A stretch of 32,000 bases of DNA, taken from Planctomycetales bacterium (GTDB lineage: Bacteria > 4484-113 > JAFGCY01). The notes under the pieces are model-generated. The model was not told the DNA's origin. It saw only the letters and a program-made list of their open reading frames with translations, and did no database searches. Position numbers and translations under genes: made by a program. Each line of letters starts with the position of its first letter. Positions within the stretch are counted from its first letter, which is position 1. Positions 5,577 through 21,848 of this stretch are shown here, in pieces. The stretch covers positions 30,001-62,000 of the forward strand of contig CP060262.1 in assembly GCA_022646745.1 (NCBI GenBank), written 5' to 3'.

Positions 5577-5668
5577 GCCGGCCAGTCTTGCATCAGTCTT
5601 CAAGTCCCTGCCTCCCGTACCGCCCGCTATGCCCGGCGGCTGATCCATTCTAACCAATGGCGCAGATA

Positions 5669-7306: not shown

Positions 7307-7340
7307 ATATGTATCCTAGCGCAGTGCCCGGCCAGGCTGC

Positions 7341-9025: not shown

Positions 9026-10558
9026 ATGAGTGAGACACAGACAATGAGTGAGGCAGCACCCCACGTACGCATCCGCGCCATCGGCCCCGGGCATCTCGGG
9101 CAGCGCGTGCAGATCCGCGGCTGGCTGGCCAACAAGCCCGGCGGCAAGGGCCGTTACTTCCTCTGGCTGCGCGACGGCAGCGGCATCATCCAGGCCGTCG
9201 CCGAGCAGGAGAAGTCCAGCCCCGAGGACTGGGAGGCCGTGGAGAGCATCGGGCTCGAAAGCAGCATCATCGTGGAGGGCATCGTCAAGGCGCACCCCAG
9301 GAACGAAGGTGAGTTCGAGCTGGACTTCGCCGGCATCAAGGTGCTGCAGGCCGTCAGCGACTACCCGATCACCAAGAAGGAGCATGGCACCGAGTTCCTG
9401 ATGAAGCACCGCCACCTCTGGCTGCGCGGCCGCCGCCAGAGCGCGATCCTGCGCATCCGTGCGGAGGTGCACAAGGCCTGGGCGGACTTCTTCTACGATC
9501 GCGGCTTCTTCCGGGTGGACACCCCGATCTTCACGCCCAACGCCTGCGAGGGCACCACGACGCTGTTCGAGGTGGACTACCACGGCGACACCGTCTACCT
9601 CTCGCAGTCCGGCCAGCTCTACAACGAGGCGGACATCGGCGCGCTCGGGCAGGTCTACTGCTTCGGGCCGACCTTCCGTGCGGAGAAGAGCAAGACCCGC
9701 CGCCACCTGCTGGAATTCTGGATGCTGGAGATGGAGGCCGCGTTCTACGACTTCGATGACAACATCCGCTTCCAGGAGGAGATGATCGCGTTCACGGTCA
9801 GCCGCATCCTCGAGCGTTGCAGTGCCGAGCTGAAGGAGCTCGGGCGCGACCCGGAGAAGCTGCGCCCGGCCACGCAGACGCCCTATCCGCGCCTGCGCTA
9901 CGGCGATGCGATCGAGCTGATCAACAAATCGCGGGTGGCGATCCTGATGGAACAGCGCGGCCTGTCCGAGGAGAAGGCGCTGGAACTGCTGTACAGCGGC
10001 AAGGCGACCTTCAGCGACGACACCTATGATGACGACGCGGAGAAGACCCGCAAGCTTGAGCCATTCCGCTGGGGCGACGACTTCGGCGCGCCGGACGAGG
10101 CCGCGATCAGTGCGCAGTACGACCGCCCGGTGTTCGTTTCCAACTTCCCGACGGAGATCAAGGGCTTCTACTTCAAGCAGGATGAGGAAGCGGACGGCAG
10201 CCTGCGTGTGGACCCGGTGTTTGCCGCGCTGCCAGACGACATGAAGCTGCCCGGCATGAGCGGGCATACCGTGCAGGGTGCGGACTGCATCGGGCCGGAG
10301 GGCGCAGGCGAGATGATCGGCGGCAGCCAGCGCGAGGACAACTTCGAGCGCCTGATGGAGAACATCGAGCACCACCAGCTGCCGCTGGACTTCTTCCAGT
10401 GGTACCTCGACACACGGCGTTATGGCAACGTGCCTCACAGCGGCTTCGGCATCGGCATGGAGCGCTTCGTGGCCTGGGTGGCGGGCGGCAGCGACACCCC
10501 GGTGCACATCCGCGAGGTGATCACATTCCCGCGCATGCTGCACCAGTTCGAGCCCTAG
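9026..10558 (+). CDS. asnS: Asparagine--tRNA ligase (class IIb), with two insertions
   Basis: ORF track gives 510 aa. AsnRS-type motif 2 is GPTFRAEKSKTRRHLLEFWMLEMEAAF. Also present are GEMIGGSQRE, RRYGNVPHSGFGIGMERFVAWV and IREVITFPR. Confidence 0.93.
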   Translation: MSETQTMSEAAPHVRIRAIGPGHLGQRVQIRGWLANKPGGKGRYFLWLRDGSGIIQAVAEQEKSSPEDWEAVESIGLESSIIVEGIVKAHPRNEGEFELDFAGIKVLQAVSDYPITKKEHGTEFLMKHRHLWLRGRRQSAILRIRAEVHKAWADFFYDRGFFRVDTPIFTPNACEGTTTLFEVDYHGDTVYLSQSGQLYNEADIGALGQVYCFGPTFRAEKSKTRRHLLEFWMLEMEAAFYDFDDNIRFQEEMIAFTVSRILERCSAELKELGRDPEKLRPATQTPYPRLRYGDAIELINKSRVAILMEQRGLSEEKALELLYSGKATFSDDTYDDDAEKTRKLEPFRWGDDFGAPDEAAISAQYDRPVFVSNFPTEIKGFYFKQDEEADGSLRVDPVFAALPDDMKLPGMSGHTVQGADCIGPEGAGEMIGGSQREDNFERLMENIEHHQLPLDFFQWYLDTRRYGNVPHSGFGIGMERFVAWVAGGSDTPVHIREVITFPRMLHQFEP

Positions 10559-10849: not shown

Positions 10850-10897
10850 GCCAGACTATCGTCTGGCCTCCCCGCCCGGCTTGTGCCGGACCTCCTA
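10850..10897 (-). repeat. REP-like unit in reverse orientation abutting the stop of paralog G
   Basis: The minus strand reads GTG TAG GAGGTCCGGCACAAGCCGGGC. A hairpin GCCAGAC-nnnn-GTCTGGC follows at 10850-10867. Confidence 0.8.
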
Positions 10898-12451
10898 CAC
10901 TCCTGCCAGCAGCCTCGTATCCGTCACCACATACAGCCGCCTGCCATCCTCCCCCGTGAGGATGTCATTCACCTGTTCACCGAAATGCTCCATGTACACC
11001 AGCTTGCCGCTGCTGTCCCACAGCCCGAGCGTATCCGAGCGGTTGTCATCGTAATCCTGCACCAGCAGGGCTGCCAGCAGGCGCTCCCCGTCGCGCTGCC
11101 AGAGCACGACCTGCGGGCGCGGCTGCCGGTGTGCCGTGGGCAGCATGTAGCCCTCCGGGAACTCCAGCTCCACCGTATCGCTGTTCCAGCTCAGGTAGAC
11201 ATGCCCGGAACTGACCAGGTCCACCCGGCCGTCGCCATTGATGTCAACGAGTGCCAGGATCGGGTCAACGTCGCGCTGCCCGCTGGCGGACAGCACATCC
11301 TGGTCCTCCTGATCGATGCCGACGAACAGCTGGTCAAAGGCATTGGTCTTCGTCTCCGATGGCCGCTTGATCAGCAGCTCATCCCTGCCGTCGCCATCCA
11401 CATCCCCCACCATGATGTCATCCATGTTGGAACACTGCGTATTGAAGATCTCGCCACCGGCCTGCTCTATTGCATAGAGCGTCTTTTCCATCAGGAATGC
11501 CGTGTTATTCCGGTCCGCTGTCTGGTTGAGCTTGTAGCACAGCAGCTCCGGTAGTCCATCGCCATCCATGTCCAGCTCCGGCAGGCGCATGCTCCAGGCA
11601 GTTCCCGGAGTATGGGCAAGAATCTCCCCATCCAGCCCGCGCAGCACTCCGCTGTCTCCCGTATATAAACGCCCACCTTCCTTTGCATTGGCGGGATCAT
11701 AATCCAGCAGTTCATCCACGCCATCACCATCGTAATCAAATGCTTCAAGCAACGCCACCAGATCAAGGCCGGGTGTCTGCAAAATGCTGCCGTCCTGATT
11801 TCGGAATTCAATTCCGCGGTACTGAATTGCCACTTCCTCCTCTGGGTCATCATCAAAGTTTCCGGGGAAGACAACGTATCGCCGGTAACCTGGTCCGGAC
11901 TGCTGTTTCTCATGCTCCTCTACTACCTGCCACTCCACCGCATCTCCACGATCCACATTCGCTTCTCCGGCCACCAGCGGCTTGTTGCGATTTAAAGCCT
12001 GCTGCATCGCATCAGCAACATATGCCTTGTCAAACAGTTGGCCCTGTGTACGGCGCTGAAGAATCCACTGCTCGCGTGTCAGGCCATTTTGCTTGGTGAT
12101 CTGCTTTCGCATCTTCTCATCCAGCTTCTCCCAGGCTCCCTCCGGGTCTGAGTATTCGCTGTAGCGATCCCATTCCCTCTTGCCATTCAGGTTCCTGGTC
12201 AGCAGCTCCCGGTCCTCCTCACTCAGCGCATTCCACAGCTCGTCAATCTCAGCCTGGGTGACCGGATGGCTACCGGCTTTGGCTGTCGCCATCCCTTCTC
12301 CGGCGATCACCGGCGCCCCACTTTCACTGACGCCTACCACCACCGGATCATCATCAGCCTGCTGGCAGGCAGCACACAGCAGGCAGGCCTGCATTGCCAG
12401 TGCCAGCATGGCCGCCAGCGCCAGCCGATCCAATCTCCCCGGATGTCCCAT
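10895..12451 (-). CDS. FG-GAP/VCBS-like beta-propeller protein, paralog G (separated from A-F by asnS)
   Basis: The ORF track starts at GTG 12502. ATG 12451 lies 9 nt downstream of a GGAGG and gives MGHPGRLDRLALAAMLALAMQACLLCAAC. The protein shows ELWNALSEEDRELL, GNFDDDPEEEV, FDYDGDGVDELL, LDMDGDGLPELL, GDVDGDGRDELL, VDINGDGRVDLV and the C-terminal SDTLGLWDSSGKLVYMEHF. Confidence 0.8.
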   Translation of the reverse strand: MGHPGRLDRLALAAMLALAMQACLLCAACQQADDDPVVVGVSESGAPVIAGEGMATAKAGSHPVTQAEIDELWNALSEEDRELLTRNLNGKREWDRYSEYSDPEGAWEKLDEKMRKQITKQNGLTREQWILQRRTQGQLFDKAYVADAMQQALNRNKPLVAGEANVDRGDAVEWQVVEEHEKQQSGPGYRRYVVFPGNFDDDPEEEVAIQYRGIEFRNQDGSILQTPGLDLVALLEAFDYDGDGVDELLDYDPANAKEGGRLYTGDSGVLRGLDGEILAHTPGTAWSMRLPELDMDGDGLPELLCYKLNQTADRNNTAFLMEKTLYAIEQAGGEIFNTQCSNMDDIMVGDVDGDGRDELLIKRPSETKTNAFDQLFVGIDQEDQDVLSASGQRDVDPILALVDINGDGRVDLVSSGHVYLSWNSDTVELEFPEGYMLPTAHRQPRPQVVLWQRDGERLLAALLVQDYDDNRSDTLGLWDSSGKLVYMEHFGEQVNDILTGEDGRRLYVVTDTRLLAGV

Positions 12452-12514
12452 TTGCCGCAGCCTCCGGCTTGCATATTTACTACACATCGTAGTATATACC
12501 ACAAATTGATGAGG

Positions 12515-12703
12515 AATGATGAATGAGCAATGAAGAGTGACTAATGAACAATGCCGGAGCTGCGTTGCGAAAACACGCCGCAGGCGTGATGCAGCTGCGC
12601 AGGACGGGAAACTGACATGCCAGTCGTGGCATAGCCTGCGAAGCTGCGCTTCGCGGCTCCGACCTCAACCTATTCTCATTGCTCACTTTTCATTGCTCAT
12701 TGC
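12515..12703. repeat. Inverted arrays of 7-bp units (AATGANN x6 ... NNTCATT x5) flanking a ~125-bp hairpin-rich segment
   Basis: IRL 12522-12548 (aatgagcaatgaagagtgactaatgaa) matches the reverse complement of IRR 12675-12701 (aatgagcaatgaaaagtgagcaatgag) at 23 of 27 positions. Internal perfect hairpins are ATGCCA-GTCG-TGGCAT and GCGAAGC-TGC-GCTTCGC. Confidence 0.85.
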
Positions 12704-12837
12704 TGCCCAGCGACTGGAAGTCGCCGCTACTGACTCCCCCCTCCTCCCCACTCCAACCCTCTTTCCGTTACTATCTTCCCGTGGATGGCTTATTCGGGAC
12801 AGGTGGGGACGCCGGCAACCGCAATGACGAATTCCGC

Positions 12838-13617
12838 ATGAGGCTCAGTGCCTTGTCCGCCGGCTTCGAGCGGGACGCCCTGTCCGGCCTGCGCGGTCCC
12901 GGGCAACCGGCGCAGTTCGTCTGGCTGGCACTGCTGGTGGCATTCATCAACGGACTCGTCTACCTCAACCTGTTCCCGGCCTATGGCCTGTACCTCTTAT
13001 TCACACCGCTGCTCTACTTCTGGTGGCTGGTGGAACTGATGCAACGCCCCCTCACCAGCCGCTTCCACTATGCCCGCCGCCACATGACGAACCAGCTGAT
13101 GTCAACGGAGCTGATGCTGCGCAGCATTGACGAACCCTACAGCCTGGCGCTGCGGGATGCCGCGCTGGAGGCCGGCCTGCCGAAGTGGATGCTGCCGCCG
13201 CAGCCGCAGGATGCCGAAGGCCTGCTGTCGCATGCCGGGGTGCTGGCACCGCTGCTGCTGGACTTCGACCGGCTCGGCCGTGGTGATCGTACAGTCGAGC
13301 TGCGCCGCGCATGGTGGAAGGTGTTCTGCGCCAGCCGCGCCGGCAGTTCCCTGTGCTGGCTGTTACTGGTGCTGGTTCCGCTCGGGGGCGGGATCCTGGC
13401 TTTCCCGGTGATGCAGCTCGTGCTGCACTGCCGCAGCCAGCGGGTTGACAGCCTGGCCCGCCAGGCCGCCCTGTGCGAGTTCCTCAGCAATGCCAACCAG
13501 GACTGGGCGCTGTTGATCCGCCAGCTCGGGCAACTCAGTGAGCAGGCTACTTCATCTCGATCACGGTCAGCGAAAACTCGCCACCCTGCTTCAGCATCTC
13601 CTGCATCGCAGGACTGA
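12838..13617 (+). CDS. Hypothetical integral membrane protein
   Basis: The ORF track begins at 12679, inside the repeat region. ATG 12838 starts a stretch of high third-position GC. Hydrophobic segments are FVWLALLVAFINGLVYLNLFPAYGLYLLFTPLLYFWWLV and LCWLLLVLVPLGGGILAFPVMQLVL. I recognise no family. Third-position GC collapses in the last ~70 nt, where it overlaps the convergent gene. Confidence 0.6.
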   Translation: MRLSALSAGFERDALSGLRGPGQPAQFVWLALLVAFINGLVYLNLFPAYGLYLLFTPLLYFWWLVELMQRPLTSRFHYARRHMTNQLMSTELMLRSIDEPYSLALRDAALEAGLPKWMLPPQPQDAEGLLSHAGVLAPLLLDFDRLGRGDRTVELRRAWWKVFCASRAGSSLCWLLLVLVPLGGGILAFPVMQLVLHCRSQRVDSLARQAALCEFLSNANQDWALLIRQLGQLSEQATSSRSRSAKTRHPASASPASQD

Positions 13618-14020
13618 GCGAGGCATCATCCATGCCGAGCGTTGCAATGCTGACCGAGATATCCGCACCATCCTTTTCGTAGAAGCGTCCGCTGGACATC
13701 AGCTGCTCCTCCTCCTTGCTGGAGAACTGCCCGCCGAAGGCGCTGTACTGCGTCTCGCGGTAGCCGAGCGCGCCTAGCTGCCTGTCAAAGTGCGCCACCA
13801 CACTGTCCCAGCCGTCCGGGTTGTTGAAGCGGATTGTCAGTGTTGACATCGAGCTGTACTGGTCGCCGGGCTGGCCGCTGAGCTGTGTCTCATCACGCTG
13901 TTCCGAGGTCTGCTGCGAGCCCTTCGGCAGGCTGAGTCCAGCCAGTCCGTACTTGCCACCGCCACCGCAGGCAGCCAGCAGCACAAGCATTGCCAGGATC
14001 ACGAAGCGCAGGCCTGCCAT
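13547..14020 (-). CDS. Small lipoprotein (last gene of the P-family operon)
   Basis: The ORF track extends to 14119. ATG 14020 gives MAGLRFVILAMLVLLAACGGGG (canonical lipobox LLAAC). This start overlaps the upstream stop by 1 nt (TGATG), and a GGAGG lies about 12 nt upstream. Confidence 0.75.
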   Translation of the reverse strand: MAGLRFVILAMLVLLAACGGGGKYGLAGLSLPKGSQQTSEQRDETQLSGQPGDQYSSMSTLTIRFNNPDGWDSVVAHFDRQLGALGYRETQYSAFGGQFSSKEEEQLMSSGRFYEKDGADISVSIATLGMDDASLSPAMQEMLKQGGEFSLTVIEMK

Positions 14021-14778
14021 CAGGGTTCCGGCCTCCAGTCCTGTCCCGGCCAGCGCACCAGCACTTCCCGCTCGCCATCCAGCAGCGGGATCATTGCCCC
14101 GAGGCTGCGCGGCTGCCACATCAGCACGCTGTTGCCATAACTGTCCCGCAGGCGCTCACTGGCAAAGATGAACAGTGCGCCGTCCGGGCTGCCGCCGCCA
14201 TCCAGGTCATGGCCGCTGTCCTGATCCGGCCCCCAGGCCACCAGCATGAAGCCATCGGTTTCGCCATCGCCGTTGCGCTGGGTCAGGTAGCTGAAGTTGC
14301 CAACCGCCTGCGCAGTCCATCCGAAGGGCACAACCTCCGCATCGAAATCTTTCCCTGATGTCGCCGTGTAGGGATTGGCATAGAAATGCGGCTCCTTCAG
14401 TGAAGCCCATTCACTCGCATAGCCCGGTCCGGCCTCCATTGGAAGGCTGGACGGATAGCGGGCATGCCGCGGGTCCGCCTGCTCCGCAGGAATCTCATAC
14501 CAGACGCAGCCATCCCAGCGCATCACCCCGTCCTGGTTGACAAGCTCCAGCGCGAGCAGCAATGTATCAGCATAGAGCTGCCACTTCTGGTCATTCGCCA
14601 GGCTGTCCGATGCCGTTTCGCCACGCTCGCGCTTCTCCCAGGAATTGGCCAGGAAGTCCCGCACCTCAGCCTCCAGCCACATGCCGTAGCTGCACAGCAG
14701 GTTGCCCGCCATGAGCAGCGGTATTGCCAGCAGGCTCAGTCCGAATGTTCGATAACTGTACTTATTGTCTTTCATCAT
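14020..14778 (-). CDS. P-family paralog 1: secreted/anchored protein with pseudopilin-like or FG-GAP-like C-terminal module
   Basis: ORF track gives 252 aa. The N-terminal hydrophobic segment is TFGLSLLAIPLLMAGNLL. The conserved block is HFYANPYT..VVPFGWTAQAVGNFSYLTQ..GFMLVAWGPDQDSGHDLDGGGSPDG. Confidence 0.8.
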   Translation of the reverse strand: MMKDNKYSYRTFGLSLLAIPLLMAGNLLCSYGMWLEAEVRDFLANSWEKRERGETASDSLANDQKWQLYADTLLLALELVNQDGVMRWDGCVWYEIPAEQADPRHARYPSSLPMEAGPGYASEWASLKEPHFYANPYTATSGKDFDAEVVPFGWTAQAVGNFSYLTQRNGDGETDGFMLVAWGPDQDSGHDLDGGGSPDGALFIFASERLRDSYGNSVLMWQPRSLGAMIPLLDGEREVLVRWPGQDWRPEP

Positions 14779-15493
14779 CCCAGGGACACAAATCGCCGTA
14801 CCATTTCAGTATCAGTTCCTGATCCCCGGCCATCACCGGAATCAACTCATAGTCACCTTCAAGATCATAGGCCTTGACGAACTCTCCTCCAGCATTGCGG
14901 ATATGCCAGCTGGCCATCATCACCCCTGCGCCATCCGCACTGCCATCGCCATCGATGTCCAGCCCGCCAAGCTCATCCGGACCCCAGCCGATCAGCATGA
15001 AACCGCAGACTCCACCATCCTCGGCATACTGCAGCAGGTAACTGAAATTGCCAACAGCATCGGTAGTCCAGCCGAAGGGAACAAGGCGGGCATTGTAGTC
15101 GTCAAACGCTTCTGCGGTGTACGGATTGGCGTAGAAGCGATCCAACTCATGTGAATATCCGTCAATGAATGAACGATTACTGATGAATGTTAAGTCTTCA
15201 GAATAACGAATTGACGCAGGCTTACCATACTCGCCTTCGTCATTGTAAGAATAATCCAGAGCCCAGGGATCACTGGGCCATAGCTGTAGTGCAATCATGG
15301 CAATGCTCGCCGACAAGGCTTTTTCATGTAGTCCGACTCGTTCTTCTTCAGCGATACTATCGTCAACTATGTAGTTCCAGCAATCGAGAATTACTGACCG
15401 GCAAACTTCTGGATAGATAAAAGTCGTGCTGCACAGCAGGCTGCCTGCCATGAGCAGGACAGGCACAATCAATGTGAAGCGGAGGTACTTCAT
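14762..15493 (-). CDS. P-family paralog 2
   Basis: ORF track gives 243 aa. The N-terminus is MKYLRFTLIVPVLLMAGSLL. The conserved block is RFYANPYT..LVPFGWTTDAVGNFSYLLQ..GFMLIGWGPDELGGLDIDGDGSADG. Its TAA stop lies 17 nt inside paralog 1. Confidence 0.8.
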   Translation of the reverse strand: MKYLRFTLIVPVLLMAGSLLCSTTFIYPEVCRSVILDCWNYIVDDSIAEEERVGLHEKALSASIAMIALQLWPSDPWALDYSYNDEGEYGKPASIRYSEDLTFISNRSFIDGYSHELDRFYANPYTAEAFDDYNARLVPFGWTTDAVGNFSYLLQYAEDGGVCGFMLIGWGPDELGGLDIDGDGSADGAGVMMASWHIRNAGGEFVKAYDLEGDYELIPVMAGDQELILKWYGDLCPWDDERQ

Positions 15494-15518
15494 CTCACCA
15501 ATGCAGCATACCGCAACT

Positions 15519-15553
15519 CACTGCCCACTGCCCTCTGCCTCCTGCCTTCTGCC
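15519..15553. repeat. 7-bp tandem repeat (NNCTGCC)x5 between P-family paralogs 3 and 2
   Basis: The units are cactgcc, cactgcc, ctctgcc, tcctgcc and ttctgcc. On the mRNA-sense minus strand they read GGCAGAA, GGCAGGA, GGCAGAG, GGCAGTG and GGCAGTG. Confidence 0.85.
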
Positions 15554-15556
15554 AAC

Positions 15557-16255
15557 TCACTTCGGCCAGTTCAGTTCCACCTGCCTCGCCGTGCCGCTGT
15601 CCCAGTAGTTCAGCTGCGCCTCAGCGCGCTGCTCGTCAGTCCACTGGCGGCGGTACATCCCATGCTGGTCCAGCGGCTCGCCGCCGGCCAGCATGATCAC
15701 CACGCCATCCGGGCTGCCGTCGCCATCGATGTCATGTCCCGTGTCAGCGCTGCTGGCATAGCCGATCAGCACATAGGCGCAGACATTGCCAAGCTCGTTG
15801 TACTGCGTGATGTAGCTGAAGTTGCCCACCGCCTCCGCGGTCCAGCCGAATGGCACGCAGCGCGCATCGTTGTTGCTGCCGTCACCGTCGCCAAACGGAT
15901 TCGGGTAGAAGCCCGGTTCGCCGTATCCCCCGTATCCCGGATGCTCGCTGCAGCAGGGATGCTGCATCAGCTGGCTCAGGGCTGCCGGGTAGTTGTTACC
16001 CCAGTGCCGGCCATCATCGCCATCCGCGACTTCGTGGTCCACCGCCCAGCGCTCCAGCCAGAGCTGGATGCTGTGCAATTCGGCCTTCAGTTGCTTCTGC
16101 GCCTCTTCCTCGCGCTGCGCGGCATCCCAGTTGCCATTGGCCACGCCTTCCCAGTAGGCACTGCGCGCCTCCTGCGGAACATCGACGGCGCTGGCCGGCG
16201 TCATTGCCATTGCCAGCAACAGCATGCCAGTCAGTAATGTCATTGTTCTTTTCAT
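15557..16255 (-). CDS. P-family paralog 3 (cleavable signal peptide)
   Basis: The ORF track starts at 16288. ATG 16255 lies 7 nt downstream of AAGGAGAA and gives MKRTMTLLTGMLLLAMAMTPASA. The conserved block is GFYPNPFG..CVPFGWTAEAVGNFSYITQ..AYVLIGYASSADTGHDIDGDGSPDG. Confidence 0.82.
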   Translation of the reverse strand: MKRTMTLLTGMLLLAMAMTPASAVDVPQEARSAYWEGVANGNWDAAQREEEAQKQLKAELHSIQLWLERWAVDHEVADGDDGRHWGNNYPAALSQLMQHPCCSEHPGYGGYGEPGFYPNPFGDGDGSNNDARCVPFGWTAEAVGNFSYITQYNELGNVCAYVLIGYASSADTGHDIDGDGSPDGVVIMLAGGEPLDQHGMYRRQWTDEQRAEAQLNYWDSGTARQVELNWPK

Positions 16256-16295
16256 CTGTCCGTTCTCCTTATCACCATCACTATCCACACGCCAG

Positions 16296-16985
16296 TCAGT
16301 CCCTGGCCTCCTGCCAGTGGATCATCAGCGGCCGGCCATGCTCCGTCACCGGCAGCCAGGCTTCATCGTGGTTCCCGCTCCACAGGTCCACCCAGTTGCC
16401 ATCGCGATCGAACAGCGCTTCCCCGCCGCTGACCAGCAGGTAGGCCACGCCGTCCGGCTGCCCGTCTCCGGTCACGTCCAGCCCACTGTAGCGGTCCGGC
16501 CCCCACAGCAGCAGCACATAGCCCGTGATGTTGCCATCCTTGTAGCGCTGCGGCAGGTAACTGAAATTGCCGACGGCCTCGGGGGTCCAACCAAAGGGCA
16601 CGGGCTTGGCGTCCAGCTCGCTTTCCGCTGAAGCCGAATACGGATTGGGATAGAAGCCCGGCTGCATGTATGGATCGCCGAAGTCGTGTTCCTCGCAGCA
16701 CTTCCCCGCCGTCAGCAGCATCGCGTCCTCCGGATAGCGCAGTTGCCAGCCTCGCTCTCCGACGGAGTGGTCCACGCTGAAGCGCTCACTCTGCAGCTGC
16801 AGGTTGAGCAGCTCGACCCTTGCCATGTCCAGCCTGTCCTTATCGGTGATGCTCTGGCCATCGGCTACGGCCTGCCAGTAGGCGTCGCGCAGCTCTTCAT
16901 AAGTCGGTCCTTCCGCTGCAGCTTGCCTGAAGCCTGCGATGGTCACGAAAACCAGGGCCAGTACGATCAATGTGTTTCGGTTCAT
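16296..16985 (-). CDS. P-family paralog 4 (cleavable signal peptide; first gene of operon)
   Basis: ORF track gives 229 aa. ATG 16985 lies 6 nt downstream of GGGAGGGA. The signal is MNRNTLIVLALVFVTIAGFRQAAA. The conserved block is GFYPNPYS..PVPFGWTPEAVGNFSYLPQ..GYVLLLWGPDRYSGLDVTGDGQPDG. Confidence 0.82.
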   Translation of the reverse strand: MNRNTLIVLALVFVTIAGFRQAAAEGPTYEELRDAYWQAVADGQSITDKDRLDMARVELLNLQLQSERFSVDHSVGERGWQLRYPEDAMLLTAGKCCEEHDFGDPYMQPGFYPNPYSASAESELDAKPVPFGWTPEAVGNFSYLPQRYKDGNITGYVLLLWGPDRYSGLDVTGDGQPDGVAYLLVSGGEALFDRDGNWVDLWSGNHDEAWLPVTEHGRPLMIHWQEARD

Positions 16986-17142
16986 TTGCCATCCCTCCCG
17001 TTGTGACTGTGCACGATATTGAAATGTATAACACAGCCTGCGCCTCCGGGCCCGCCCTTCATGTCAGCATGCTAATGTTAAACCCCAATGAAACCGGTGG
17101 AGCTGGGGCCGTCTTATCCCGCCGGTGCAGGAGAAGCCTGGC

Positions 17143-18114
17143 ATGCATGACATATTCAGCCTGCCCCCCGAGGGCTACCCGCAGGAACTGCTGTCCCTGC
17201 GCAGCGAGGTCATTTCGCGCACGCTTGCCGGCCATATCGACTCCGCCTATGAAATGTACCAGTTCGAGCTGGAGCGCCTGAAGGAGCTGAGCATCCGCGT
17301 GTTCGAGCTGCCGCGCGAGCACTTCGAGCTGGAGCACCGTCTCTCGCAGCTGGACTACGCGAAGGACAGCGCTGAGATGGAAAGCATCATGCAGCAGATG
17401 GAGCAGCTGAAGCTCGCCGCCGGCTTCCCGCAGGAGCGCATTGACGACCCGATGGGGGCCGGCAAGCCCGCCGAGCTGCGTGAGATCGAGGAACGGATGC
17501 AGCAGGCCGCCGAGCGCGCCGACATGGCGGAAAGCGTGCGCCTGTCCCAGCAGTGGCTGGAGCGGATGCGCTTCTACGGTTACCCGCAGCCCGGCATGGA
17601 GCGGCAGGAGCAGGCCTACCAGGCCTTCCTCGAACAGGAGGAGGAGCTCAACCGGCAGGTCCCGCCGGAGTACCTCGCCACCATGCGCTCGCTGGCCATG
17701 GCGCTGTACCGCGGCAACATGGATGAGGTGATGCGCCAGCACGAGCAGCAGATCGAGATCGCCCAGTGCCTCGGGATCAACGTGCAGCGCATGTCCCGGG
17801 AGTACTTTGAGCTGCAGCACCGCATCAGCAAGGCCGCCCGCCGCAACGACCAGGCCGAGCTGGCCCAGCTCCAGCAGGAGCTGGAGGAGCTGCAACCCGC
17901 CGACCAGCCCGTGATGGAGATGTTCGTCGACCCCTCAGGCGTGATGGGCCTGCCCCCGGAGTACGCCGAACTGGCCCGCGCCTGTGCCGAGGCCTTCGAG
18001 AACGGAGATGAGGCGGAGGCCCTGCGGCTCAGCCAGCAGATGCAGAAACTGCTGGAAAGCAGCGGCAATATCTACAACATCATGAACATCATTGAATCGG
18101 AGCCGGAAGGCTGA
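17143..18114 (+). CDS. Acidic all-helical cytoplasmic protein with internal repeats (unknown family)
   Basis: The ORF track starts at GTG 17125. ATG 17143 lies about 7 nt downstream of GGAGAAG. The sequence is Glu/Gln/Leu-rich. Internal duplication is seen in REHFELEHRLSQL versus REYFELQHRISKA, and three segments open with PPEGY / PPEY / PPEY. Confidence 0.7.
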   Translation: MHDIFSLPPEGYPQELLSLRSEVISRTLAGHIDSAYEMYQFELERLKELSIRVFELPREHFELEHRLSQLDYAKDSAEMESIMQQMEQLKLAAGFPQERIDDPMGAGKPAELREIEERMQQAAERADMAESVRLSQQWLERMRFYGYPQPGMERQEQAYQAFLEQEEELNRQVPPEYLATMRSLAMALYRGNMDEVMRQHEQQIEIAQCLGINVQRMSREYFELQHRISKAARRNDQAELAQLQQELEELQPADQPVMEMFVDPSGVMGLPPEYAELARACAEAFENGDEAEALRLSQQMQKLLESSGNIYNIMNIIESEPEG

Positions 18115-18173: not shown

Positions 18174-19964
18174 GTGGAACAGGACCAACAGCCGCGGGAG
18201 AACGGGGGCGAACAGCAGGCAGCCCCTTCCGCAGTGCAGGCACATTCCAAAGGCCAGGGCAACGGCAGGCACAACGGCCAGAAGGATGATCCTCGTGTGC
18301 GCCTGCTGCTGGCCAAGCTGCTGGCCACCCTGACCGGCATGATCATCGGCATGGCGATCACGGCAGTGGTCAGCTCAAATCTGCTGCCGGAGCAGCAGGA
18401 AAAGGTCAGCAGCGCGCAGGAAGAAATCAACGAGGCGAACAAGAGCATCGCCCAGATGAATCCGGAATGGCAGAAGGCATATGATGAACGGACTGCCGCC
18501 AAGGAATCATATGACGACCAGGTTGATGCTGACCTGCTTGAGCTGTTCACCAAGGGATTCAACAACCTCCGGTCAAGCACCGGCAGCAGTACCAAGGAGA
18601 TGCTGGATTCCCTTGAGTCCGATCCGGACCGGCTGATCCTTGAACTATACGGGATCCTGACGGAAGACCAGGCGAAACCCGCCGAGGACAGGACCATTGA
18701 CGATGCTGTCCGCAGCAAGTTCCTCAGCAAGTTCCATTTCGCGGGCGGCAGTCCTGCAGCGGCTGATGACCAGGCTGAGGCACAGGCCAGTGCGGTACCG
18801 GCGACATCCCTGGAGTTCGACCCGGACCTGAATACCAGCGCCCTGCTCTTCCTGGAACTGCGCCGCAAGGATTATGAGTACATCCAGGTTGACAACGAAT
18901 ACTCAAAGTTCCAGCTGTCCGTCACGCTGAACCAGGAAGTGATTTCGGTCACGGAGCGGTTCATCGGCCAGATTGACCTGATCAGCCTGGCGATCATCTT
19001 CATCTGTACGATCCTTGGCTACCTGACCCATCCCATAGCTGAGCGGCTGATCAAGCGCATCGCCCAGAACTGGCGCGAGTTTGATTTCGGGCCGGGACAG
19101 CGCAGCACGCCCGCCGCCATCGGCTTCTTCGCCGGCATGCTGCTGGCAATTGTCGTGCTGCTGCTGCTGTTCACCGTGATCCCGCTTGAGCAGTCGATCA
19201 TGGACCAGAGCTGGTTCAAGGTGCTGGTCGGCACGGTCATCGTGCTGATCATCAGCGGCATCGGGGCCATCACCGGCGCAACCTACTTCGGCCCGCGCGA
19301 GGACCCGGACCTCGTGGACGAATACATCGAATTCCGCCGCAATGCCGCGCCGAAGCTGCTCGACACATCAGTGATCATCGACGGGCGGATCTACGAGATT
19401 GCCCAGACCCGCTTCCTCGACGGCTACCTCGTGGTCACCGGCTCCGTGCTGCGTGAGCTGCAGACGCTGGCTGACAGCGCGGATGAGCGCAAGCGCATCA
19501 AGGGCCGCAGCGGGCTGGAGCTGGTGCAGAAGATGCAGGATGACAACCGCGTCGACCTGCGGATCTTCGATGACAGCCAGTTCGACAGCCAGGCCAATGG
19601 CGTTGACGACCAGCTGATGATCGTCTGCCGTGAGATGGGGGCACAGGTCGTCACCAATGACTACAACCTCAACCGCGTGGCGGCGATCCTCAACGTCAAG
19701 GTGCTCAACATCAATGCACTTGCCAACTCCGTCAAGACCCGGCACCTGCCGGGCGACGAGATCGTGATCAAGATCACCGACCGCGGCAAGCAGAAGGGAC
19801 AGGGCGTCGGCTACCTCGAGGACGGCACGATGGTCGTGATCGAGGACGGTGGCGGCTTCATCGGCCAGAACAAGCTGGTGCGCATCACGAGCGTCTCGCA
19901 GACCGCACAGGGCCGCCTGCTGTTCGCACGGGTGGACCTTGCCAACGGAGAGGGCGATGGCTGA
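18174..19964 (+). CDS. yacL: YacL-like PIN + TRAM domain integral membrane protein with a long N-terminal insertion
   Basis: ORF track gives 596 aa with a GTG start, which is uncertain. The PIN region is LLDTSVIIDGRIYEIAQTRFLDGYLVV..VDDQLMIVCREMGAQVVTNDYNLNRVA. The TRAM-like tail is GDEIVIKITDRGKQKGQGVGYLEDGTMVVIEDG..LVRITSVSQTAQGRLLFARV. It lies upstream of ispD, as in the known yacL-ispD-ispF synteny. Confidence 0.8.
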   Translation: MEQDQQPRENGGEQQAAPSAVQAHSKGQGNGRHNGQKDDPRVRLLLAKLLATLTGMIIGMAITAVVSSNLLPEQQEKVSSAQEEINEANKSIAQMNPEWQKAYDERTAAKESYDDQVDADLLELFTKGFNNLRSSTGSSTKEMLDSLESDPDRLILELYGILTEDQAKPAEDRTIDDAVRSKFLSKFHFAGGSPAAADDQAEAQASAVPATSLEFDPDLNTSALLFLELRRKDYEYIQVDNEYSKFQLSVTLNQEVISVTERFIGQIDLISLAIIFICTILGYLTHPIAERLIKRIAQNWREFDFGPGQRSTPAAIGFFAGMLLAIVVLLLLFTVIPLEQSIMDQSWFKVLVGTVIVLIISGIGAITGATYFGPREDPDLVDEYIEFRRNAAPKLLDTSVIIDGRIYEIAQTRFLDGYLVVTGSVLRELQTLADSADERKRIKGRSGLELVQKMQDDNRVDLRIFDDSQFDSQANGVDDQLMIVCREMGAQVVTNDYNLNRVAAILNVKVLNINALANSVKTRHLPGDEIVIKITDRGKQKGQGVGYLEDGTMVVIEDGGGFIGQNKLVRITSVSQTAQGRLLFARVDLANGEGDG

Positions 19965-20733
19965 GTTCAGCGCGATCGTACTCGCCGGTGGGAAGGCCTC
20001 GCGCTTCGGCGGCACTGATGTCTACAAGGAAAAGCTCGGCGGCAAGTCGATGCTGTCACATTCAATTGACCTCTGCGAGGCGCACGAGCACTGCCGCGAG
20101 GTGCTTGTCAGCGTCTCCCCGGCGATCCGCTCCTGGATCGAAGGCGATGTGCTGACCTTCTCCGGCTCCAAGATGAGACTCATGGATGCACAGGCAGACC
20201 GCCAGTCCTCCGCACTGGCAGCAGCCAGGCTTGCTAGCAGTGACCTGCTCGTGGTCCTCGATGGCAACCGCCCCTACAGCGGCGATGAGCTGCTGGAGCG
20301 CGTGCTGCGCGAGGCGGCCGAGGGCACGGGCTGCGCACCATGCCTGGACTGCACCGATCCGCCGGCCAGCCGCGGTGACAAGGTGGCCGGTGACGGTGGC
20401 GACACCGATTTCTTCGGTGCGAAGAAGACAGACTCATACGCCCGCAGCATGCTGCGGGGCAACCTGCCGGCGGCTGAGGCAGTGCTGCTGCAGCATCCGC
20501 AGGCCTTCCTGCGTGAGGACTACATCTCAAAGGCTGAAGCTGCCGGTGACCTTACGCGCTTCGCTGACGACAGCGAGGTGTTCATGGCCGGCGGTGGTGA
20601 CATTGTGCTCGTGCCCGGCCGCAGCGGCAACTTCCGCATTGTCAGCCATGATGACCTGCGCATCATGCAGAAGATCATGGGCGGCCCTTCAAAGAAGAAG
20701 CAGGACGGCAAGTACGGGGGCCTCGGTTGGTAG
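19957..20733 (+). CDS. ispD: IspD-like nucleotidyltransferase (2-C-methyl-D-erythritol 4-phosphate cytidylyltransferase family, divergent)
   Basis: The ORF track starts at 19849 inside yacL. ATG 19957 overlaps the yacL stop by 8 nt. The protein shows MAEFSAIVLAGGKASRFGG (P-loop), VLDGNRP (compare HDAARP), QHPQAF and GNFRIVSHDDLRIM (compare NIKVTRPEDL). Confidence 0.7.
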   Translation: MAEFSAIVLAGGKASRFGGTDVYKEKLGGKSMLSHSIDLCEAHEHCREVLVSVSPAIRSWIEGDVLTFSGSKMRLMDAQADRQSSALAAARLASSDLLVVLDGNRPYSGDELLERVLREAAEGTGCAPCLDCTDPPASRGDKVAGDGGDTDFFGAKKTDSYARSMLRGNLPAAEAVLLQHPQAFLREDYISKAEAAGDLTRFADDSEVFMAGGGDIVLVPGRSGNFRIVSHDDLRIMQKIMGGPSKKKQDGKYGGLGW

Positions 20734-21848
20734 CAGCGGGCAGGAATGACTCCGGCCTGCGCATCGGCCAGGGCGTAAGCTCACAGCGCATCTCCAGTGG
20801 CAAGGCGGCCGCACTGGCCGGCATGAGCGTGGAGCTGCAGGTCGGCGATGCCAGCAGCGACGGAGACGTTGCCAGCCAGGCGGTGCTCGCTGCCCTGATG
20901 ACGGCACTGTCCCTGCCGGGCATCGACACCCTGTTCCCCGCTGACGACACGGAGGCCCTGCGCGAAAACAGCCTGGTGCTGCTCAGCCAGACCGTCAGCG
21001 CCCTCAAGCGCCGCCAGCTGGACTCCGTCAGCAGCGCCAGCATCAGCCTGCACCTGGCGGACTGGCAGGCGATCTCCGCCTACTGGGAGGAGATGTGCGG
21101 CATGCTGGCCAGTGCGCTGCAGGTCGAGCGTGACTGCATCGGCCTCGGCATCGGTCCAGTACCGGATGGGATGGACGGCGACTGCATGTACGCCGTTGCC
21201 TCCGTGCTCTGCCAGCGCCGCAACCCATTTGCTACTGCACCGAAGGCTGCCGCCCCGAGCCGTGCCGAGCGCACCGCCGAGGCGGCCCGCAGCCTGTTTG
21301 ACAACCCACAGCCGGCCAGGGCATCAGAGCCTGAGCCGGACATCCTGGAGGACCCGACATTGCCAAGGAGAGCACGCGAGTTCGAACAGGCGGTGCGCAG
21401 CGGCCTGCCGCCCCTGCCCCGCGCCCAGGCACCTGAGCCAGGCAGCACGCTTTACGTCTACAGTGACGGCGCCAGCCGCGGCAACCCCGGCAAGGCGGCC
21501 ACCGGTTTCGTGGTGATGGACGGGGCCGGCCTGCTGGTGCATGAGGGCGGCACCCGGCTGGAAGACTGCACCAACAACCAGGCGGAGTACCGCGCGATCA
21601 TCGAGGCGCTGGAATGGGTTGAGCGCGAACTCGGGCACGACTTCCACCTGGAGTGCCGGCTGGACAGCGAACTTGTCGTCAAGCAGTTAAAGGGCGAGTA
21701 CAAGGTCAAGAAGGAAGAACTGAAGCCGCTGTCAATGAAGGCCATGAACCTGCTGATGTACTTCACGTCCTTCGAGCTCAGGCATGTGCCGCGCGCCGAG
21801 AACGCCCGCGCCGACGCAATGGCCAACGCGGTGCTTGACAACAGCTGA
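20727..21848 (+). CDS. Fusion protein: degenerate IspF-like domain (aa ~11-164) + linker + RNase HI domain (aa ~240-373)
   Basis: ORF track gives 373 aa. The TTG start overlaps the ispD TAG (TTGGTAG). The N-terminal domain aligns to IspF: LRIGQGVSSQ..ASSDGDVASQAVLAAL..GIDTLFPADD. The C-terminal domain shows YSDGASRGNPG, NNQAEYRAIIEAL, LDSELVVKQL and ENARADAMAN, which is the DEDD set of RNase H. Confidence 0.78.
   Translation: MVAAGRNDSGLRIGQGVSSQRISSGKAAALAGMSVELQVGDASSDGDVASQAVLAALMTALSLPGIDTLFPADDTEALRENSLVLLSQTVSALKRRQLDSVSSASISLHLADWQAISAYWEEMCGMLASALQVERDCIGLGIGPVPDGMDGDCMYAVASVLCQRRNPFATAPKAAAPSRAERTAEAARSLFDNPQPARASEPEPDILEDPTLPRRAREFEQAVRSGLPPLPRAQAPEPGSTLYVYSDGASRGNPGKAATGFVVMDGAGLLVHEGGTRLEDCTNNQAEYRAIIEALEWVERELGHDFHLECRLDSELVVKQLKGEYKVKKEELKPLSMKAMNLLMYFTSFELRHVPRAENARADAMANAVLDNS

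What the first reader, a model, noticed from the sequence alone, without database searches (positions are those of the whole stretch)
13547..16985. Operon of four small paralogs with a pseudopilin-like / single-FG-GAP-like module but no prepilin signal, plus a lipoprotein
Four tandem genes of 229-252 aa share the block (F/Y)YxNPY..(V/P)PFGWTxxAVGNFSY(L/I)xQ..G(Y/F)xLxxWGPD..G.D(I/L/V)xGDGxPDG. The pattern GN.(S)Y..Q....G.Y.L..(W/S).G.D..G.D.DGDG resembles the C-terminal beta-sheet and Ca-site of GspG-type pseudopilins (DPWGNPYxY..G.yDLxSLGaDG..GG..D.D). The preceding helix (e.g. AELHSIQLWLERWAVDH...YPAALSQL) resembles the pilin alpha1-C/alpha-beta loop. The N-termini, however, are not class-III signals. 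MKYLRFTLIVPVLLMAG looks like a decayed GFTLIE, and two members have ordinary AxA signal peptides. An alternative reading is that PFGW..AVGNFSY plus DIDGDGSPDG is a lone FG-GAP-type repeat related to the neighbouring propeller family. Either way this is an uncharacterised secreted family, sitting next to the propeller array and sharing its DxDGDG loop.
Basis: partly seen in the sequence, partly recalled or inferred. Interest (0 to 1): 0.75.

Follow-up and report, generated by a model that had tools for sequence, protein, structure and literature searches.

The report
Secreted pilin-like paralogs lacking pilin signal
Four neighbouring genes and a lipoprotein gene in an uncultured (candidate phylum UBP7) bacterium encode secreted proteins whose domain descends from the subunits of type IV pili / type II secretion pseudopili. 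They have swapped the pilin-specific membrane helix and signal for an ordinary secretion signal, so this is an uncharacterised offshoot of a well-known protein class.

Summary
Four paralogous genes (229, 232, 243 and 252 aa; 32-38% identical) and a 157-aa lipoprotein gene form one tightly packed minus-strand operon at 13547-16985. They are under purifying selection (dN/dS 0.12-0.20).

No Pfam, NCBIfam or PDB sequence match exists. An exhaustive HMM search finds only about 105 cluster representatives among 1.84 billion proteins.

Profile searches link both halves of the domain to proteins that carry a true prepilin (N_methyl) signal:
- The long helix 'LHxLQLxxERWSVDH..YP' aligns with pilin alpha1-C, directly after alpha1-N (hhalign 91-99.5%).
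- The 'GNFSY...GYxLxGYG...DGxxDGVIxxLxSG' half aligns with their C-terminal sheet (97.4%).

The window proteins carry Sec-type signals instead (AxA sites in P1 and P2) and a DxDxDG calcium loop between strands 2 and 3.

A confident AlphaFold model (pLDDT 89.7) shows a helix followed by five strands, but Foldseek finds no PDB match. Direct similarity to canonical GspG is weak. The FG-GAP resemblance is confined to the calcium loop.

Best reading: a Sec-exported, calcium-binding, pilin-derived domain family that cannot polymerise through alpha1-N. It probably forms a lipoprotein-anchored hetero-oligomer in the cell envelope. Function is unknown. Interest is moderate: a new variant of a known kind.

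The parts
16296..16985 (-). P1, 229 aa. It has a Sec signal peptide (aa 1-24, cleavage AAA|E), the alpha1-C-like helix 'LLNLQLQSERFSVD' (nt 16770-16811), a CCEEH motif (nt 16686-16700), FYPNPY, VPFGWTPEAVGNFSY (nt 16557-16601) and the calcium loop DVTGDGQPDG (nt 16449-16478).
   Evidence: (GGGAGGG ribosome-binding site 8 nt before the ATG)
15557..16255 (-). P2, 232 aa. The listed ORF starts at GTG 16288, but an AAGGAG ribosome-binding site and the ortholog gene call support ATG 16255. It has signal peptide MKRT..PASA|VD, helix 'LHSIQLWLERWAVD' (nt 16037-16078), CCSEH, and calcium loop DIDGDGSPDG (nt 15704-15733). This paralog keeps the strongest similarity to the prepilin-type relatives.
   Evidence: (E = 8.8e-8 with the prepilin-group HMM)
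14762..15493 (-). P3, 243 aa. Its N-terminal hydrophobic segment MKYLRFTLIVPVLLMAGSLLCS has no AxA site and no lipobox, so it may be a signal anchor. Calcium loop DIDGDGSADG (nt 14930-14959).
14020..14778 (-). P4, 252 aa. Its start overlaps the end of P3 by about 17 nt. It has an N-terminal hydrophobic segment ..LLMAGNLLCS and a degenerate calcium loop DLDGGGSPDG (nt 14179-14208).
13547..14020 (-). Lipoprotein, 157 aa (lipobox LLAAC|GGGG). Its ATG shares one base with the P4 stop codon (TGATG), with a TGGAGG ribosome-binding site upstream. It belongs to a small lineage-restricted family whose members share the motif 'GLxLPxG' and include a non-lipidated secreted paralog 'X' in related contigs.
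16986..17124 (.). 139-bp divergent intergenic region between P1 and the plus-strand 329-aa gene. It is the presumed promoter region of the operon. No sigma-70 consensus was found.

Best explanation
The operon encodes four paralogous, Sec-exported proteins built on a calcium-binding globular domain that descends from type IV pilin-like (pseudopilin-type) proteins. The class III signal and the hydrophobic alpha1-N helix have been replaced by an ordinary signal peptide (P1, P2) or an N-terminal hydrophobic anchor (P3, P4).

Shown here:
- Homology of the long helix to pilin alpha1-C, and of the C-terminal half to the sheet region of N_methyl-bearing proteins.
- Absence of the prepilin motif.
- A DxDxDG loop placed between predicted strands 2 and 3.
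- Tight operon packing, with stop/start overlap for P3-P4-lipoprotein.
- Purifying selection.

Inferred:
- The loop binds Ca2+ and stabilises the fold, as the C-terminal calcium site does in GspG-type endopilins.
[quoted passage not shown] They would instead act as soluble or anchored periplasmic/surface modules.
- Homologs elsewhere fuse two or three of these domains in one chain, and the genes here are translationally coupled. The four paralogs therefore probably assemble side by side into a hetero-oligomer tethered by the co-translated lipoprotein.
- This complex would contribute to a calcium-dependent envelope or adhesion layer, together with neighbouring secreted Ca-binding proteins (the FG-GAP propellers here).
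For: Paralogs and operon anatomy.

No known family.

Small family: 105 representatives among 1.84e9 proteins. Of these, 57 have a single N-terminal hydrophobic segment, 23 are multi-TM anchored, and none has a prepilin motif.

Link to prepilin-type proteins:
- three collinear segments.
- probability 99.5%, E = 1.6e-22.
- C-terminal half, probability 97.4%, E = 1e-11.
- the link holds without intermediates, 91% and 97.9%.
- the reciprocal HMM ranks the four paralogs as the top 4 of 298 window ORFs.
- Members such as P0103, P0068 and P0088 still carry the remnant '..AAIALPNYIKARDKAMEAEVK..' of pilin alpha1 in front of the same compact domain.

AlphaFold model: pLDDT 89.7. Helix 48-73, then strands 141-147, 153-161, 180-185, 208-215 and 218-225, with the calcium loop at 162-179.

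Fusion proteins with two or three domains: P0004, P0007, P0008, P0009 and locus L011.

Selection: dN/dS 0.12-0.20.

The role of alpha1-N as assembly interface and the definition of the class III signal come from PMC4471445. The calcium site of major endopilins comes from PMC13081927.
Against: - Foldseek of the confident model finds no pilin or pseudopilin, nor anything else, in PDB (best E = 0.39) or BFVD. The pilin-like fold therefore rests on the order of secondary-structure elements plus sequence homology, not on a 3D match.
- Canonical GspG similarity is marginal, and Pfam T2SSG is only touched at E = 0.05-0.1.
- The globular part of the prepilin-type relatives is itself unlike any solved pilin by sequence.
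- Nothing here tests calcium binding, oligomerisation, localisation or partnership with the lipoprotein or the FG-GAP proteins.
- Outside the UBP7-like synteny the neighbours differ.
- P4's calcium loop lacks one acidic ligand.
Confidence: 0.6

Rival explanations
1. The proteins are still filament subunits. P3 and P4 keep an uncleaved N-terminal hydrophobic helix that substitutes for alpha1-N. A type IV pilus or T2SS-like machine encoded elsewhere in the genome assembles them, possibly with P1 and P2 as accessory subunits, into a non-canonical pilus or pseudopilus.
For: - P3, P4 and their orthologs have a roughly 20-residue hydrophobic N-terminus with no AxA site.
- The domain is homologous to prepilin-type proteins.
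- Those relatives also occur as tandem arrays of 2-3 paralogs far from any machinery genes. Absence of machinery in the window therefore says little.
Against: - There is no Gly-1/Glu5 class III motif and no N_methyl hit.
- P1 and P2 have cleavable AxA signal peptides, which would remove any anchor.
- No pilB/C/D or gspD/E/F genes lie within the 32 kb.
- The 'FTLI' in P3 is not conserved in its orthologs.
Confidence: 0.1
2. The conserved block is a lone FG-GAP-type blade derived from the neighbouring propeller family. It acts as a detached blade or as a partner that complements the propellers.
For: - It shares the D-x-D-G-D-G-x-x-D/E loop flanked by hydrophobic strands.
- hhalign of the C-terminal half against 24 blades from the window's six FG-GAP paralogs gives probability 69.6%, E = 4e-5.
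- Two of 48 members touch Pfam FG-GAP at E = 0.022.
- One FG-GAP-like protein (P0095) appears at the tail of the family search.
- An FG-GAP gene lies downstream in every UBP7-like locus.
Against: - The match covers essentially only the DxDxDG loop, a motif that recurs in unrelated folds.
- The same two strands in the prepilin-type relatives align at 97.4%.
- The AlphaFold model is a helix plus a five-stranded sheet, not a four-stranded blade.
- There is no FG-GAP Pfam hit for the window proteins.
- Members outside this lineage have no FG-GAP neighbours.
Confidence: 0.05
3. They are soluble periplasmic pilin mimics that regulate or cap a type IV filament made elsewhere, for example by binding pilins, minor-pilin complexes or chaperone-like partners. 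This has been proposed for the Sec-exported protein Bd0109 of Bdellovibrio, which has a putative pilin-like fold.
For: - A pilin-derived globular domain lacking the polymerisation helix is what a decoy or cap would look like.
- There is a precedent in PMC3818213.
Against: - No pilus genes lie nearby.
- Four ancient paralogs plus a lipoprotein (and multi-domain fusions elsewhere) look more like a structural assembly than a regulator.
- No sequence relation to Bd0109 was tested.
Confidence: 0.1
4. They are calcium-dependent ligand-binding (lectin- or adhesin-like) secreted proteins that act individually. The paralogs would diversify specificity for host or substrate surfaces.
For: - The locus content varies between close relatives: P3 loss by P3/P4 recombination, and presence or absence of gene X.
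- Neighbours are adhesin-type proteins: FG-GAP, dockerin, Big_6 and CarboxypepD_reg domains.
- Genomes of the UBP7 phylum are reported as small, 0.83-1.39 Mb (PMC11382960). That would fit a host- or particle-attached lifestyle.
Against: - The most conserved residues are core and loop residues (YP, NP, GNFSY, GYG, DxDGDG) rather than a variable binding face.
- dN/dS is low.
- No carbohydrate-binding family is hit.
Confidence: 0.15

Closest known systems
Uncharacterised prepilin-type proteins of 323-403 aa from uncultured bacteria (P0115-P0129; PF07963 N_methyl; labelled 'type II secretion system protein G' or 'prepilin-type N-terminal cleavage/methylation domain-containing protein')
   Same: - Homologous alpha1-C helix (EAEVKxNLHxIQIALERYAxDHxGxYP versus LHxLQLxxERWSVDH..YP).
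- Homologous YPxNPF, GNF(F/S)Y, GYxLxGYGxxxxxGxDV and DGxxDGVIxVLxSG segments, in the same order.
- They also occur as tandem arrays of 2-3 paralogs away from machinery genes.
   Different: - They carry the class III signal and alpha1-N (RGFTLIELLVV...).
- They are 100-170 aa longer, through insertions in the alpha-beta loop and inside the loop that forms the compact DxDGDG calcium site in the window family.
- The window proteins use Sec-type N-termini and have an extra amphipathic helix (aa 29-41 of P1) before alpha1-C.
Major pseudopilin/endopilin of type II secretion (GspG/PulG/XcpT/EpsG; Pfam T2SSG PF08334)
   Same: - Order of elements: alpha1-C, a 'YP' turn with a short helix, a long loop, antiparallel strands, and an acidic calcium loop near the C-terminus that stabilises the subunit (PMC13081927).
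- The helix aligns at hhalign probability 57%, E = 1e-4.
- The pattern GN.Y.YL...G..DL..LG.DG..G...D.D parallels GNFSYL...G..GYVLL.WGPD..G.D..GDG..DG.
   Different: - No class III signal or alpha1-N.
- The C-terminal half similarity is not significant (E = 0.17).
- Pfam T2SSG is not reached, and Foldseek finds no hit to any GspG structure.
- The calcium loop is a DxDxDG type.
- Two extra C-terminal strands and an inserted 'VPFGW' segment are present.
- There is no T2SS operon.
FG-GAP / integrin-alpha-type beta-propeller repeat (PF01839, PF13517), as in the six neighbouring paralogs
   Same: A DxDGDGxx(D/E) calcium loop between two hydrophobic strands. Both are secreted, and both sit in the same locus in UBP7-like genomes.
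   Different: There is one loop per domain rather than a multi-blade propeller. The model shows a helix-plus-sheet architecture. The resemblance is local only, and the FG-GAP Pfam threshold is not met.
Bd0109 of Bdellovibrio bacteriovorus, a Sec-exported periplasmic protein with a putative N-terminal pilin-like fold (PMC3818213)
   Same: It is a precedent for a pilin-like fold exported with an ordinary signal peptide and acting outside a filament.
   Different: It is a different, much larger protein (about 550 aa with YD repeats). No sequence relation was tested here. It is not arranged as a paralog operon.

Membership tests
Type IV pilin / T2SS pseudopilin (type IV filament subunits) | Class III signal peptide: a hydrophilic leader ending in Gly-1, cleaved by prepilin peptidase (definition from PMC4471445) | tested here: not met
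   No G|F-T-L-I-E motif in any of the four N-termini. No Pfam N_methyl hit. P1 and P2 have AxA signal-peptidase-I sites. None of the 105 family representatives matches the motif.
Type IV pilin / T2SS pseudopilin (type IV filament subunits) | A roughly 21-residue hydrophobic alpha1-N with Glu5, the main assembly interface in the filament | tested here: not met
   P1 and P2 lose their only hydrophobic segment on signal-peptide cleavage. P3 and P4 have a hydrophobic N-terminus but no Glu5 or Gly-1. In alignments, the family helix starts where alpha1-C starts in the prepilins.
Type IV pilin / T2SS pseudopilin (type IV filament subunits) | Globular head: alpha1-C packed on an antiparallel beta-sheet (3D fold) | tested here: inconclusive
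   The AlphaFold model (pLDDT 89.7) has helix 48-73 followed by five strands, which fits the pilin order of elements. Foldseek retrieved no pilin from PDB (best E = 0.39), and the coordinates could not be inspected.
Type IV pilin / T2SS pseudopilin (type IV filament subunits) | Sequence homology of the head domain to proteins that carry a genuine prepilin signal | tested here: met
- three collinear segments.
- hhalign 99.5% and 97.4%.
- 91% and 97.9% without intermediates.
- Reciprocal ranking.
Type IV pilin / T2SS pseudopilin (type IV filament subunits) | Match to the GspG family model (Pfam T2SSG PF08334) or to solved GspG sequences | tested here: not met
   - No hit for the window proteins.
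- One of 48 family members reaches E = 0.051.
- The PDB profile search is empty.
Type IV pilin / T2SS pseudopilin (type IV filament subunits) | Genomic presence of assembly machinery (prepilin peptidase, traffic ATPase, platform protein, secretin) | tested here: not met
   None lies in the 32-kb window or in the syntenic loci. The rest of the genome could not be searched.
Type IV pilin / T2SS pseudopilin (type IV filament subunits) | Calcium site in the C-terminal loop (a feature of GspG-type major endopilins) | not testable with these tools
   A DxDxDG-type loop (D-[VIL]-[DT]-G-D-G-x-x-D-G) lies between predicted strands 2 and 3 in P1-P3 and is degenerate in P4. Metal binding needs an experiment.
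FG-GAP beta-propeller repeat (PF01839 / PF13517) | Pfam model matched above threshold | tested here: not met
   No hit in P1-P4. Two of 48 family members reach E = 0.022. The neighbouring 535-aa protein hits at 3.5e-13 in the same search.
FG-GAP beta-propeller repeat (PF01839 / PF13517) | Several tandem blades forming a propeller | tested here: not met
   There is one calcium loop per domain. The model is helix plus sheet. hhalign against the window's blades is local to the loop (69.6%).
Bacterial lipoprotein (gene 13547-14020) | Signal peptide ending in the lipobox [LVI][ASTVI][GAS]C | tested here: met
   The N-terminus is MAGLRFVILAMLVLLAAC|GGGG. Orthologs have LLLAGC and LLAAC. Lipidation itself was not tested.

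The most novel reading that the evidence does not exclude
The four paralogs and the lipoprotein build a previously unknown kind of surface appendage or envelope lattice. Pilin-fold subunits would be exported by Sec and polymerise without alpha1-N and without a type IV machine, for example head-to-tail through the calcium loop and the extra C-terminal hairpin, as the natural two- and three-domain fusions hint. The structure would be anchored by the lipoprotein and would display the adjacent FG-GAP propellers for attachment by these small-genome UBP7 bacteria.
Probability: 0.1. Interest if true: 0.8.

Novelty: new variant of a known kind. Interest (0 to 1): 0.45.

Why it matters
Type IV pilin-like proteins are defined by their class III signal and alpha1-N helix, and searches for them rely on that motif.

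This family shows that the pilin head domain can be detached from that system, rerouted through Sec and kept under selection. It persists as multi-paralog operons, multi-domain fusions and multi-TM-anchored forms. Motif-based surveys miss such descendants.

The family gives a concrete set of sequences for asking what a pilin head does when it cannot polymerise. It also flags a candidate envelope or adhesion module in an uncultured, small-genome phylum. The family, about 105 clusters, has no Pfam or NCBIfam model and could be defined as a new domain family within the pilin clan.

Tried and rejected
1. Pfam, NCBIfam and PDB sequence searches with single proteins and with profiles gave no meaningful hit.
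2. The first AlphaFold run with 6 sequences was unusable (pLDDT 52). It was redone with 48 sequences.
3. Foldseek of the good model against PDB and BFVD found nothing at E < 0.2. The pilin fold could therefore not be confirmed in 3D, and no third library (AFDB) was available.
I do not claim GspG membership.
5. A transitive link through PDB failed. The prepilin-type relatives without alpha1-N have no PDB sequence match either.
6. The extra N-terminal domain of seven two-domain homologs (A9) looked pilin-like by eye. It matched neither PDB nor the family profile, so the idea was dropped.
7. 'Decayed GFTLIE' in P3 was rejected because FTLI is not conserved in the orthologs.
8. The FG-GAP single-blade reading was rejected as the main explanation.
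9. Genome and metagenome scans with broad alignments failed for lack of a conserved 7-10-mer. Narrower scans gave only 6 + 4 loci.
10. The lipoprotein family search gave only 4 lineage-restricted hits, with no names.
11. The promoter/terminator scan, Rfam and tRNA scans found nothing informative.
12. A literature search found no description of this family.

Full report
**What is there**

On the minus strand between 13547 and 16985 lie five consecutive genes:
- P1: 16296-16985, 229 aa.
- P2: 15557-16255, 232 aa. The mechanical ORF begins at GTG 16288, but an AAGGAG ribosome-binding site and the gene call in a 94%-identical contig put the start at ATG 16255.
- P3: 14762-15493, 243 aa.
- P4: 14020-14778, 252 aa.
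- A lipoprotein: 13547-14020, 157 aa, MAGLRFVILAMLVLLAAC|GGGG.

The gaps between genes are 40 and 63 nt. P3/P4 then overlap by about 17 nt, and the P4 stop and the lipoprotein start share one base (TGATG). P1 is preceded by GGGAGGG and a 139-bp divergent intergenic region.

The four P proteins align end to end at 33-38% identity to P1. There are 37 invariant columns, including FYxNP, VPFGWTxxAVGNFSY and the loop G.D..G.G..DG. A family HMM hits only these four ORFs in the window. Against a 94%-identical metagenomic contig, dN/dS is 0.20 (P1), 0.12 (P2) and 0.14 (P4).

**Where it comes from**

The closest genomic matches are MAGs labelled 'UBP7' from Hong Kong saline activated sludge: 98% identity to JAGRNR010000056, and 59-60% to two other MAGs (source study PMC8495973). 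The phylum has been reported with small genomes of 0.83-1.39 Mb (PMC11382960).

The surroundings are chromosomal housekeeping genes: AspRS, IspD, IspF, PPK, NDK and CTP synthase. There are also six FG-GAP paralogs. No type IV pilus or T2SS gene is in the window.

**No known family by direct search**

Pfam, NCBIfam and PDB sequence searches return nothing for P1-P4, whether as single sequences or as profiles. The word-indexed search of 5.8 billion proteins finds only two orthologs. The exhaustive HMM search of 1.84 billion cluster representatives finds 105 at E <= 1e-3, of which 14 are at <= 1e-30.

Of these 105 representatives:
- 57 have a single N-terminal hydrophobic segment (signal peptide or anchor).
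- 23 are anchored by several TM helices.
- 15 are fragments.
- None has a prepilin motif.
- Several carry two or three copies of the domain in one chain (P0004, P0007, P0008, P0009).

**The link to pilins**

A 48-sequence profile (A3), searched against the 5.8-billion set, recovers 15 proteins of 323-403 aa in addition to family members. Their E-values are 1e-5 to 9e-4. Most of them begin with a textbook class III signal (..RGFTLIELLVVITIIGILAAIALPNY..; Pfam N_methyl). Their sources call them 'type II secretion system protein G' or 'prepilin-type N-terminal cleavage/methylation domain-containing protein'.

The match consists of three collinear segments:
1. The helix right after alpha1-N: 'KAKEAEVKSNLHTIQIALERYATDHSGSYP' against the family's 'LHxLQLAxERWSVDH....YP'.
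2. 'GYxLGGYGSPRTDGMDV' against 'GYVLVGYGPxxxSGLDV'.
3. 'DGYRDGVILVLTSGSD' against 'DGxPDGVIxxLxSG'.

Profile-profile comparison gives:
- 99.5% (E = 1.6e-22) for the helix.
- 97.4% (E = 1e-11, 69 columns) for the C-terminal half.
- 91% when only the window paralogs and two orthologs are used.
- 97.9% with 17 Sec-type members against the prepilin group stripped of alpha1-N. The link therefore does not depend on intermediate sequences.

In the reverse direction, the stripped prepilin-group HMM ranks P2 (E = 8.8e-8), P4, P1 and P3 as the top four of 298 window ORFs.

Some multi-TM members (P0103, P0068, P0088) still show the tail of pilin alpha1 ('..CLAAIALPNYIKARDKAMEAEVKANAHTIQIALERY..') in front of the same compact domain with the DVDGDGxPDHVI loop. 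They look like transitional forms.

I conclude that the family's long helix is homologous to pilin alpha1-C, and that the whole domain descends from a clade of type IV pilin-like proteins.

**Structure**

With 6 sequences AlphaFold failed (pLDDT 52). With 48 sequences it gave pLDDT 89.7 and pTM 0.83. The model contains:
- The signal peptide.
- A short amphipathic helix, residues 29-41.
- A 26-residue helix, 48-73.
- A short helix at the 'YP' turn, 88-92.
- A long loop.
- Strands 141-147, 153-161, 180-185, 208-215 and 218-225.

The D-x-D/T-G-D-G-x-x-D-G loop (residues 162-179 of P1) sits between strands 2 and 3. This order of elements is that of a pilin head. The acidic loop occupies the place of the calcium site that stabilises GspG-type major endopilins (PMC13081927).

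However, Foldseek found no significant neighbour in PDB (best E = 0.39, a PDZ domain) or in BFVD. The head of the prepilin-type relatives also has no PDB sequence match. The 3D claim therefore remains unconfirmed. This is the main weakness of the interpretation.

**Canonical GspG and FG-GAP**

Against 24 blades taken from the six neighbouring FG-GAP paralogs, the C-terminal half gives 69.6% (E = 4e-5). The match is essentially the DxDGDGxx(D/E) loop. This DxDxDG-type loop is a recurrent calcium motif. The same strands align far better with the prepilin-type proteins, and the model is not a blade. I therefore treat the FG-GAP resemblance as a shared or convergent calcium loop, not as membership.

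**Context and co-occurrence**

Within the UBP7-like lineage the order P genes - lipoprotein(s) - FG-GAP - AspRS is conserved, but the gene content varies:
- The 60%-identical genomes have P1, P2, a secreted protein X, the lipoprotein and FG-GAP.
- A 'Planctomycetales'-labelled MAG has a P2-like gene, two lipoproteins and FG-GAP.
- The 94%-identical contig L001 has P1, P2, X, a P3'/P4 hybrid, the lipoprotein and an extra dioxygenase-like gene.

X is a non-lipidated paralog of the lipoprotein, sharing the motif W-x-x-G-L-x-L-P-P. That family is restricted to this lineage, with 4 hits.

Elsewhere, family members stand alone. They sit next to a dockerin lipoprotein and a Big_6 lipoprotein, next to a CarboxypepD_reg protein, or next to mevalonate-pathway genes. 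The FG-GAP link is therefore lineage synteny, not a family-wide rule. The general theme of the neighbours is secreted, often calcium-binding, surface proteins.

The prepilin-type relatives also occur as tandem arrays of two or three paralogs away from any machinery. Some of them lie near PMT_2-type glycosyltransferases.

**How it most likely works**

Shown:
- Sec-type N-termini: AxA sites in P1 and P2, and a canonical lipobox in the fifth gene.
- No class III signal.
- A pilin-derived head with a DxDxDG loop.
- Translational coupling.
- Natural fusions of 2-3 domains.

Inferred:
- The proteins are exported by Sec.
- P1 and P2 are released into the periplasm or beyond.
- P3 and P4 may stay anchored by their uncleaved hydrophobic N-terminus.
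- The lipoprotein is lipid-anchored.
- Calcium stabilises each head.
- The hydrophobic alpha1-N is the main subunit interface of type IV filaments (PMC4471445). Since it is missing here, the proteins cannot be polymerised in the canonical way. The paralogs probably associate laterally into a hetero-oligomer tethered by the lipoprotein, as part of an envelope or adhesion layer.

I put about 0.8 on the identity claim (a Sec-exported pilin-derived calcium-loop domain). I put about 0.3 on the specific hetero-oligomer/anchor mechanism. Overall confidence is 0.6.

The rivals are a non-canonical pilus subunit, a pilus regulator or decoy in the manner of Bd0109 (PMC3818213), independent calcium-dependent adhesins, and a detached FG-GAP blade. 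They are listed with their tests.

**Novelty and score**

No paper in the searchable library describes this family, and no Pfam or NCBIfam model covers it. It is not a new kind of system. It is a new variant of the pilin-like superfamily that has left the class III pathway. That is interesting for pilin evolution and for annotating candidate phyla, but there is no demonstrated function. Interest is 0.45.

Noticed in passing
window 14685-15516 versus L001 12166-12258: There is a gene-content polymorphism between the window and a 94%-identical contig. L001 carries one hybrid gene made of the P3 5' end and signal peptide joined to the P4 body. The junction lies in a shared ~34-nt stretch encoding 'LLMAGxLLC'. 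This points to homologous recombination between the tandem paralogs. L001 also has an extra secreted gene X between P2 and the hybrid, and a 412-aa Dioxygenase_C-like gene after the lipoprotein, both absent from the window.
   Followed up: partly
window 16686-16700 (P1) and 15941-15955 (P2): P1, P2 and their orthologs share a 'CC-x-E-H' motif in the alpha-beta loop. In P1 these are the only two cysteines, so the motif could be a vicinal disulfide or a metal site. P3 and P4 lack it.
   Followed up: no
window 14179-14208: The calcium loop of P4 is DLDGGGSPDG, with the third acidic position replaced by Gly. The same is true in L001, whereas the more distant ortholog P0010 has DLDGDG. The calcium site in this paralog may be weakened.
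   Followed up: no
window 1313-8546 and 10895-12502 (-): Six FG-GAP paralogs (401-553 aa) flank an AspRS gene (9026-10558, +). Each has exactly four D-x-D/N-x-D/N-G loops.
   Followed up: partly
window 20727-21848 (+): An IspF (YgbB) domain is fused to a C-terminal RNase H / RVT_3 domain in one 373-aa ORF, directly after IspD. The fusion is conserved in the related contigs.
   Followed up: no
window 18174-19964 (+): A 596-aa protein has a long N-terminal region, several hydrophobic segments and C-terminal PIN + TRAM domains. It is conserved next to the operon in all related loci.
   Followed up: no
window 17125-18114 (+): A 329-aa Glu/Gln-rich, apparently helical protein with no family lies divergently next to P1. 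It is conserved in L001 and L008.
   Followed up: no
window 12679-13617 (+): A 312-aa predicted membrane protein with no family lies on the opposite strand between the lipoprotein gene and the FG-GAP gene. It is present in L001 but absent from L008, where the FG-GAP gene follows the lipoprotein directly.
   Followed up: no
L010 1520-8618: In the same MAG as L006 (UBP7 HKST-UBA03), a lone family member lies beside apparent mevalonate-pathway genes: an IDI-2-like gene, a 773-aa HMG-CoA reductase/kinase-like fusion and a diphosphomevalonate decarboxylase-like gene. These identifications are by eye from the translations. The lineage's syntenic locus (L008, L001, window) carries the MEP-pathway genes IspD and IspF.
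   Followed up: no
L012 8929-12102; JGI contig of P0118; L014 7690-14005: The prepilin-type relatives occur as tandem arrays of 2-3 N_methyl paralogs among housekeeping genes. Two of the three contexts examined have PMT_2-type (GT-C) glycosyltransferase genes adjacent, and one has a PQQ_2 beta-propeller protein directly downstream.
   Followed up: partly
proteins P0035, P0036, P0049, P0051, P0056, P0080, P0092: Seven family members carry an extra ~100-aa N-terminal domain after a Sec signal. Its consensus is ..L(Q/R)T.AA.EFA.W...GRYGS.EEL.. followed by strands. It looks pilin-like by eye but matches neither PDB nor the family profile.
   Followed up: yes
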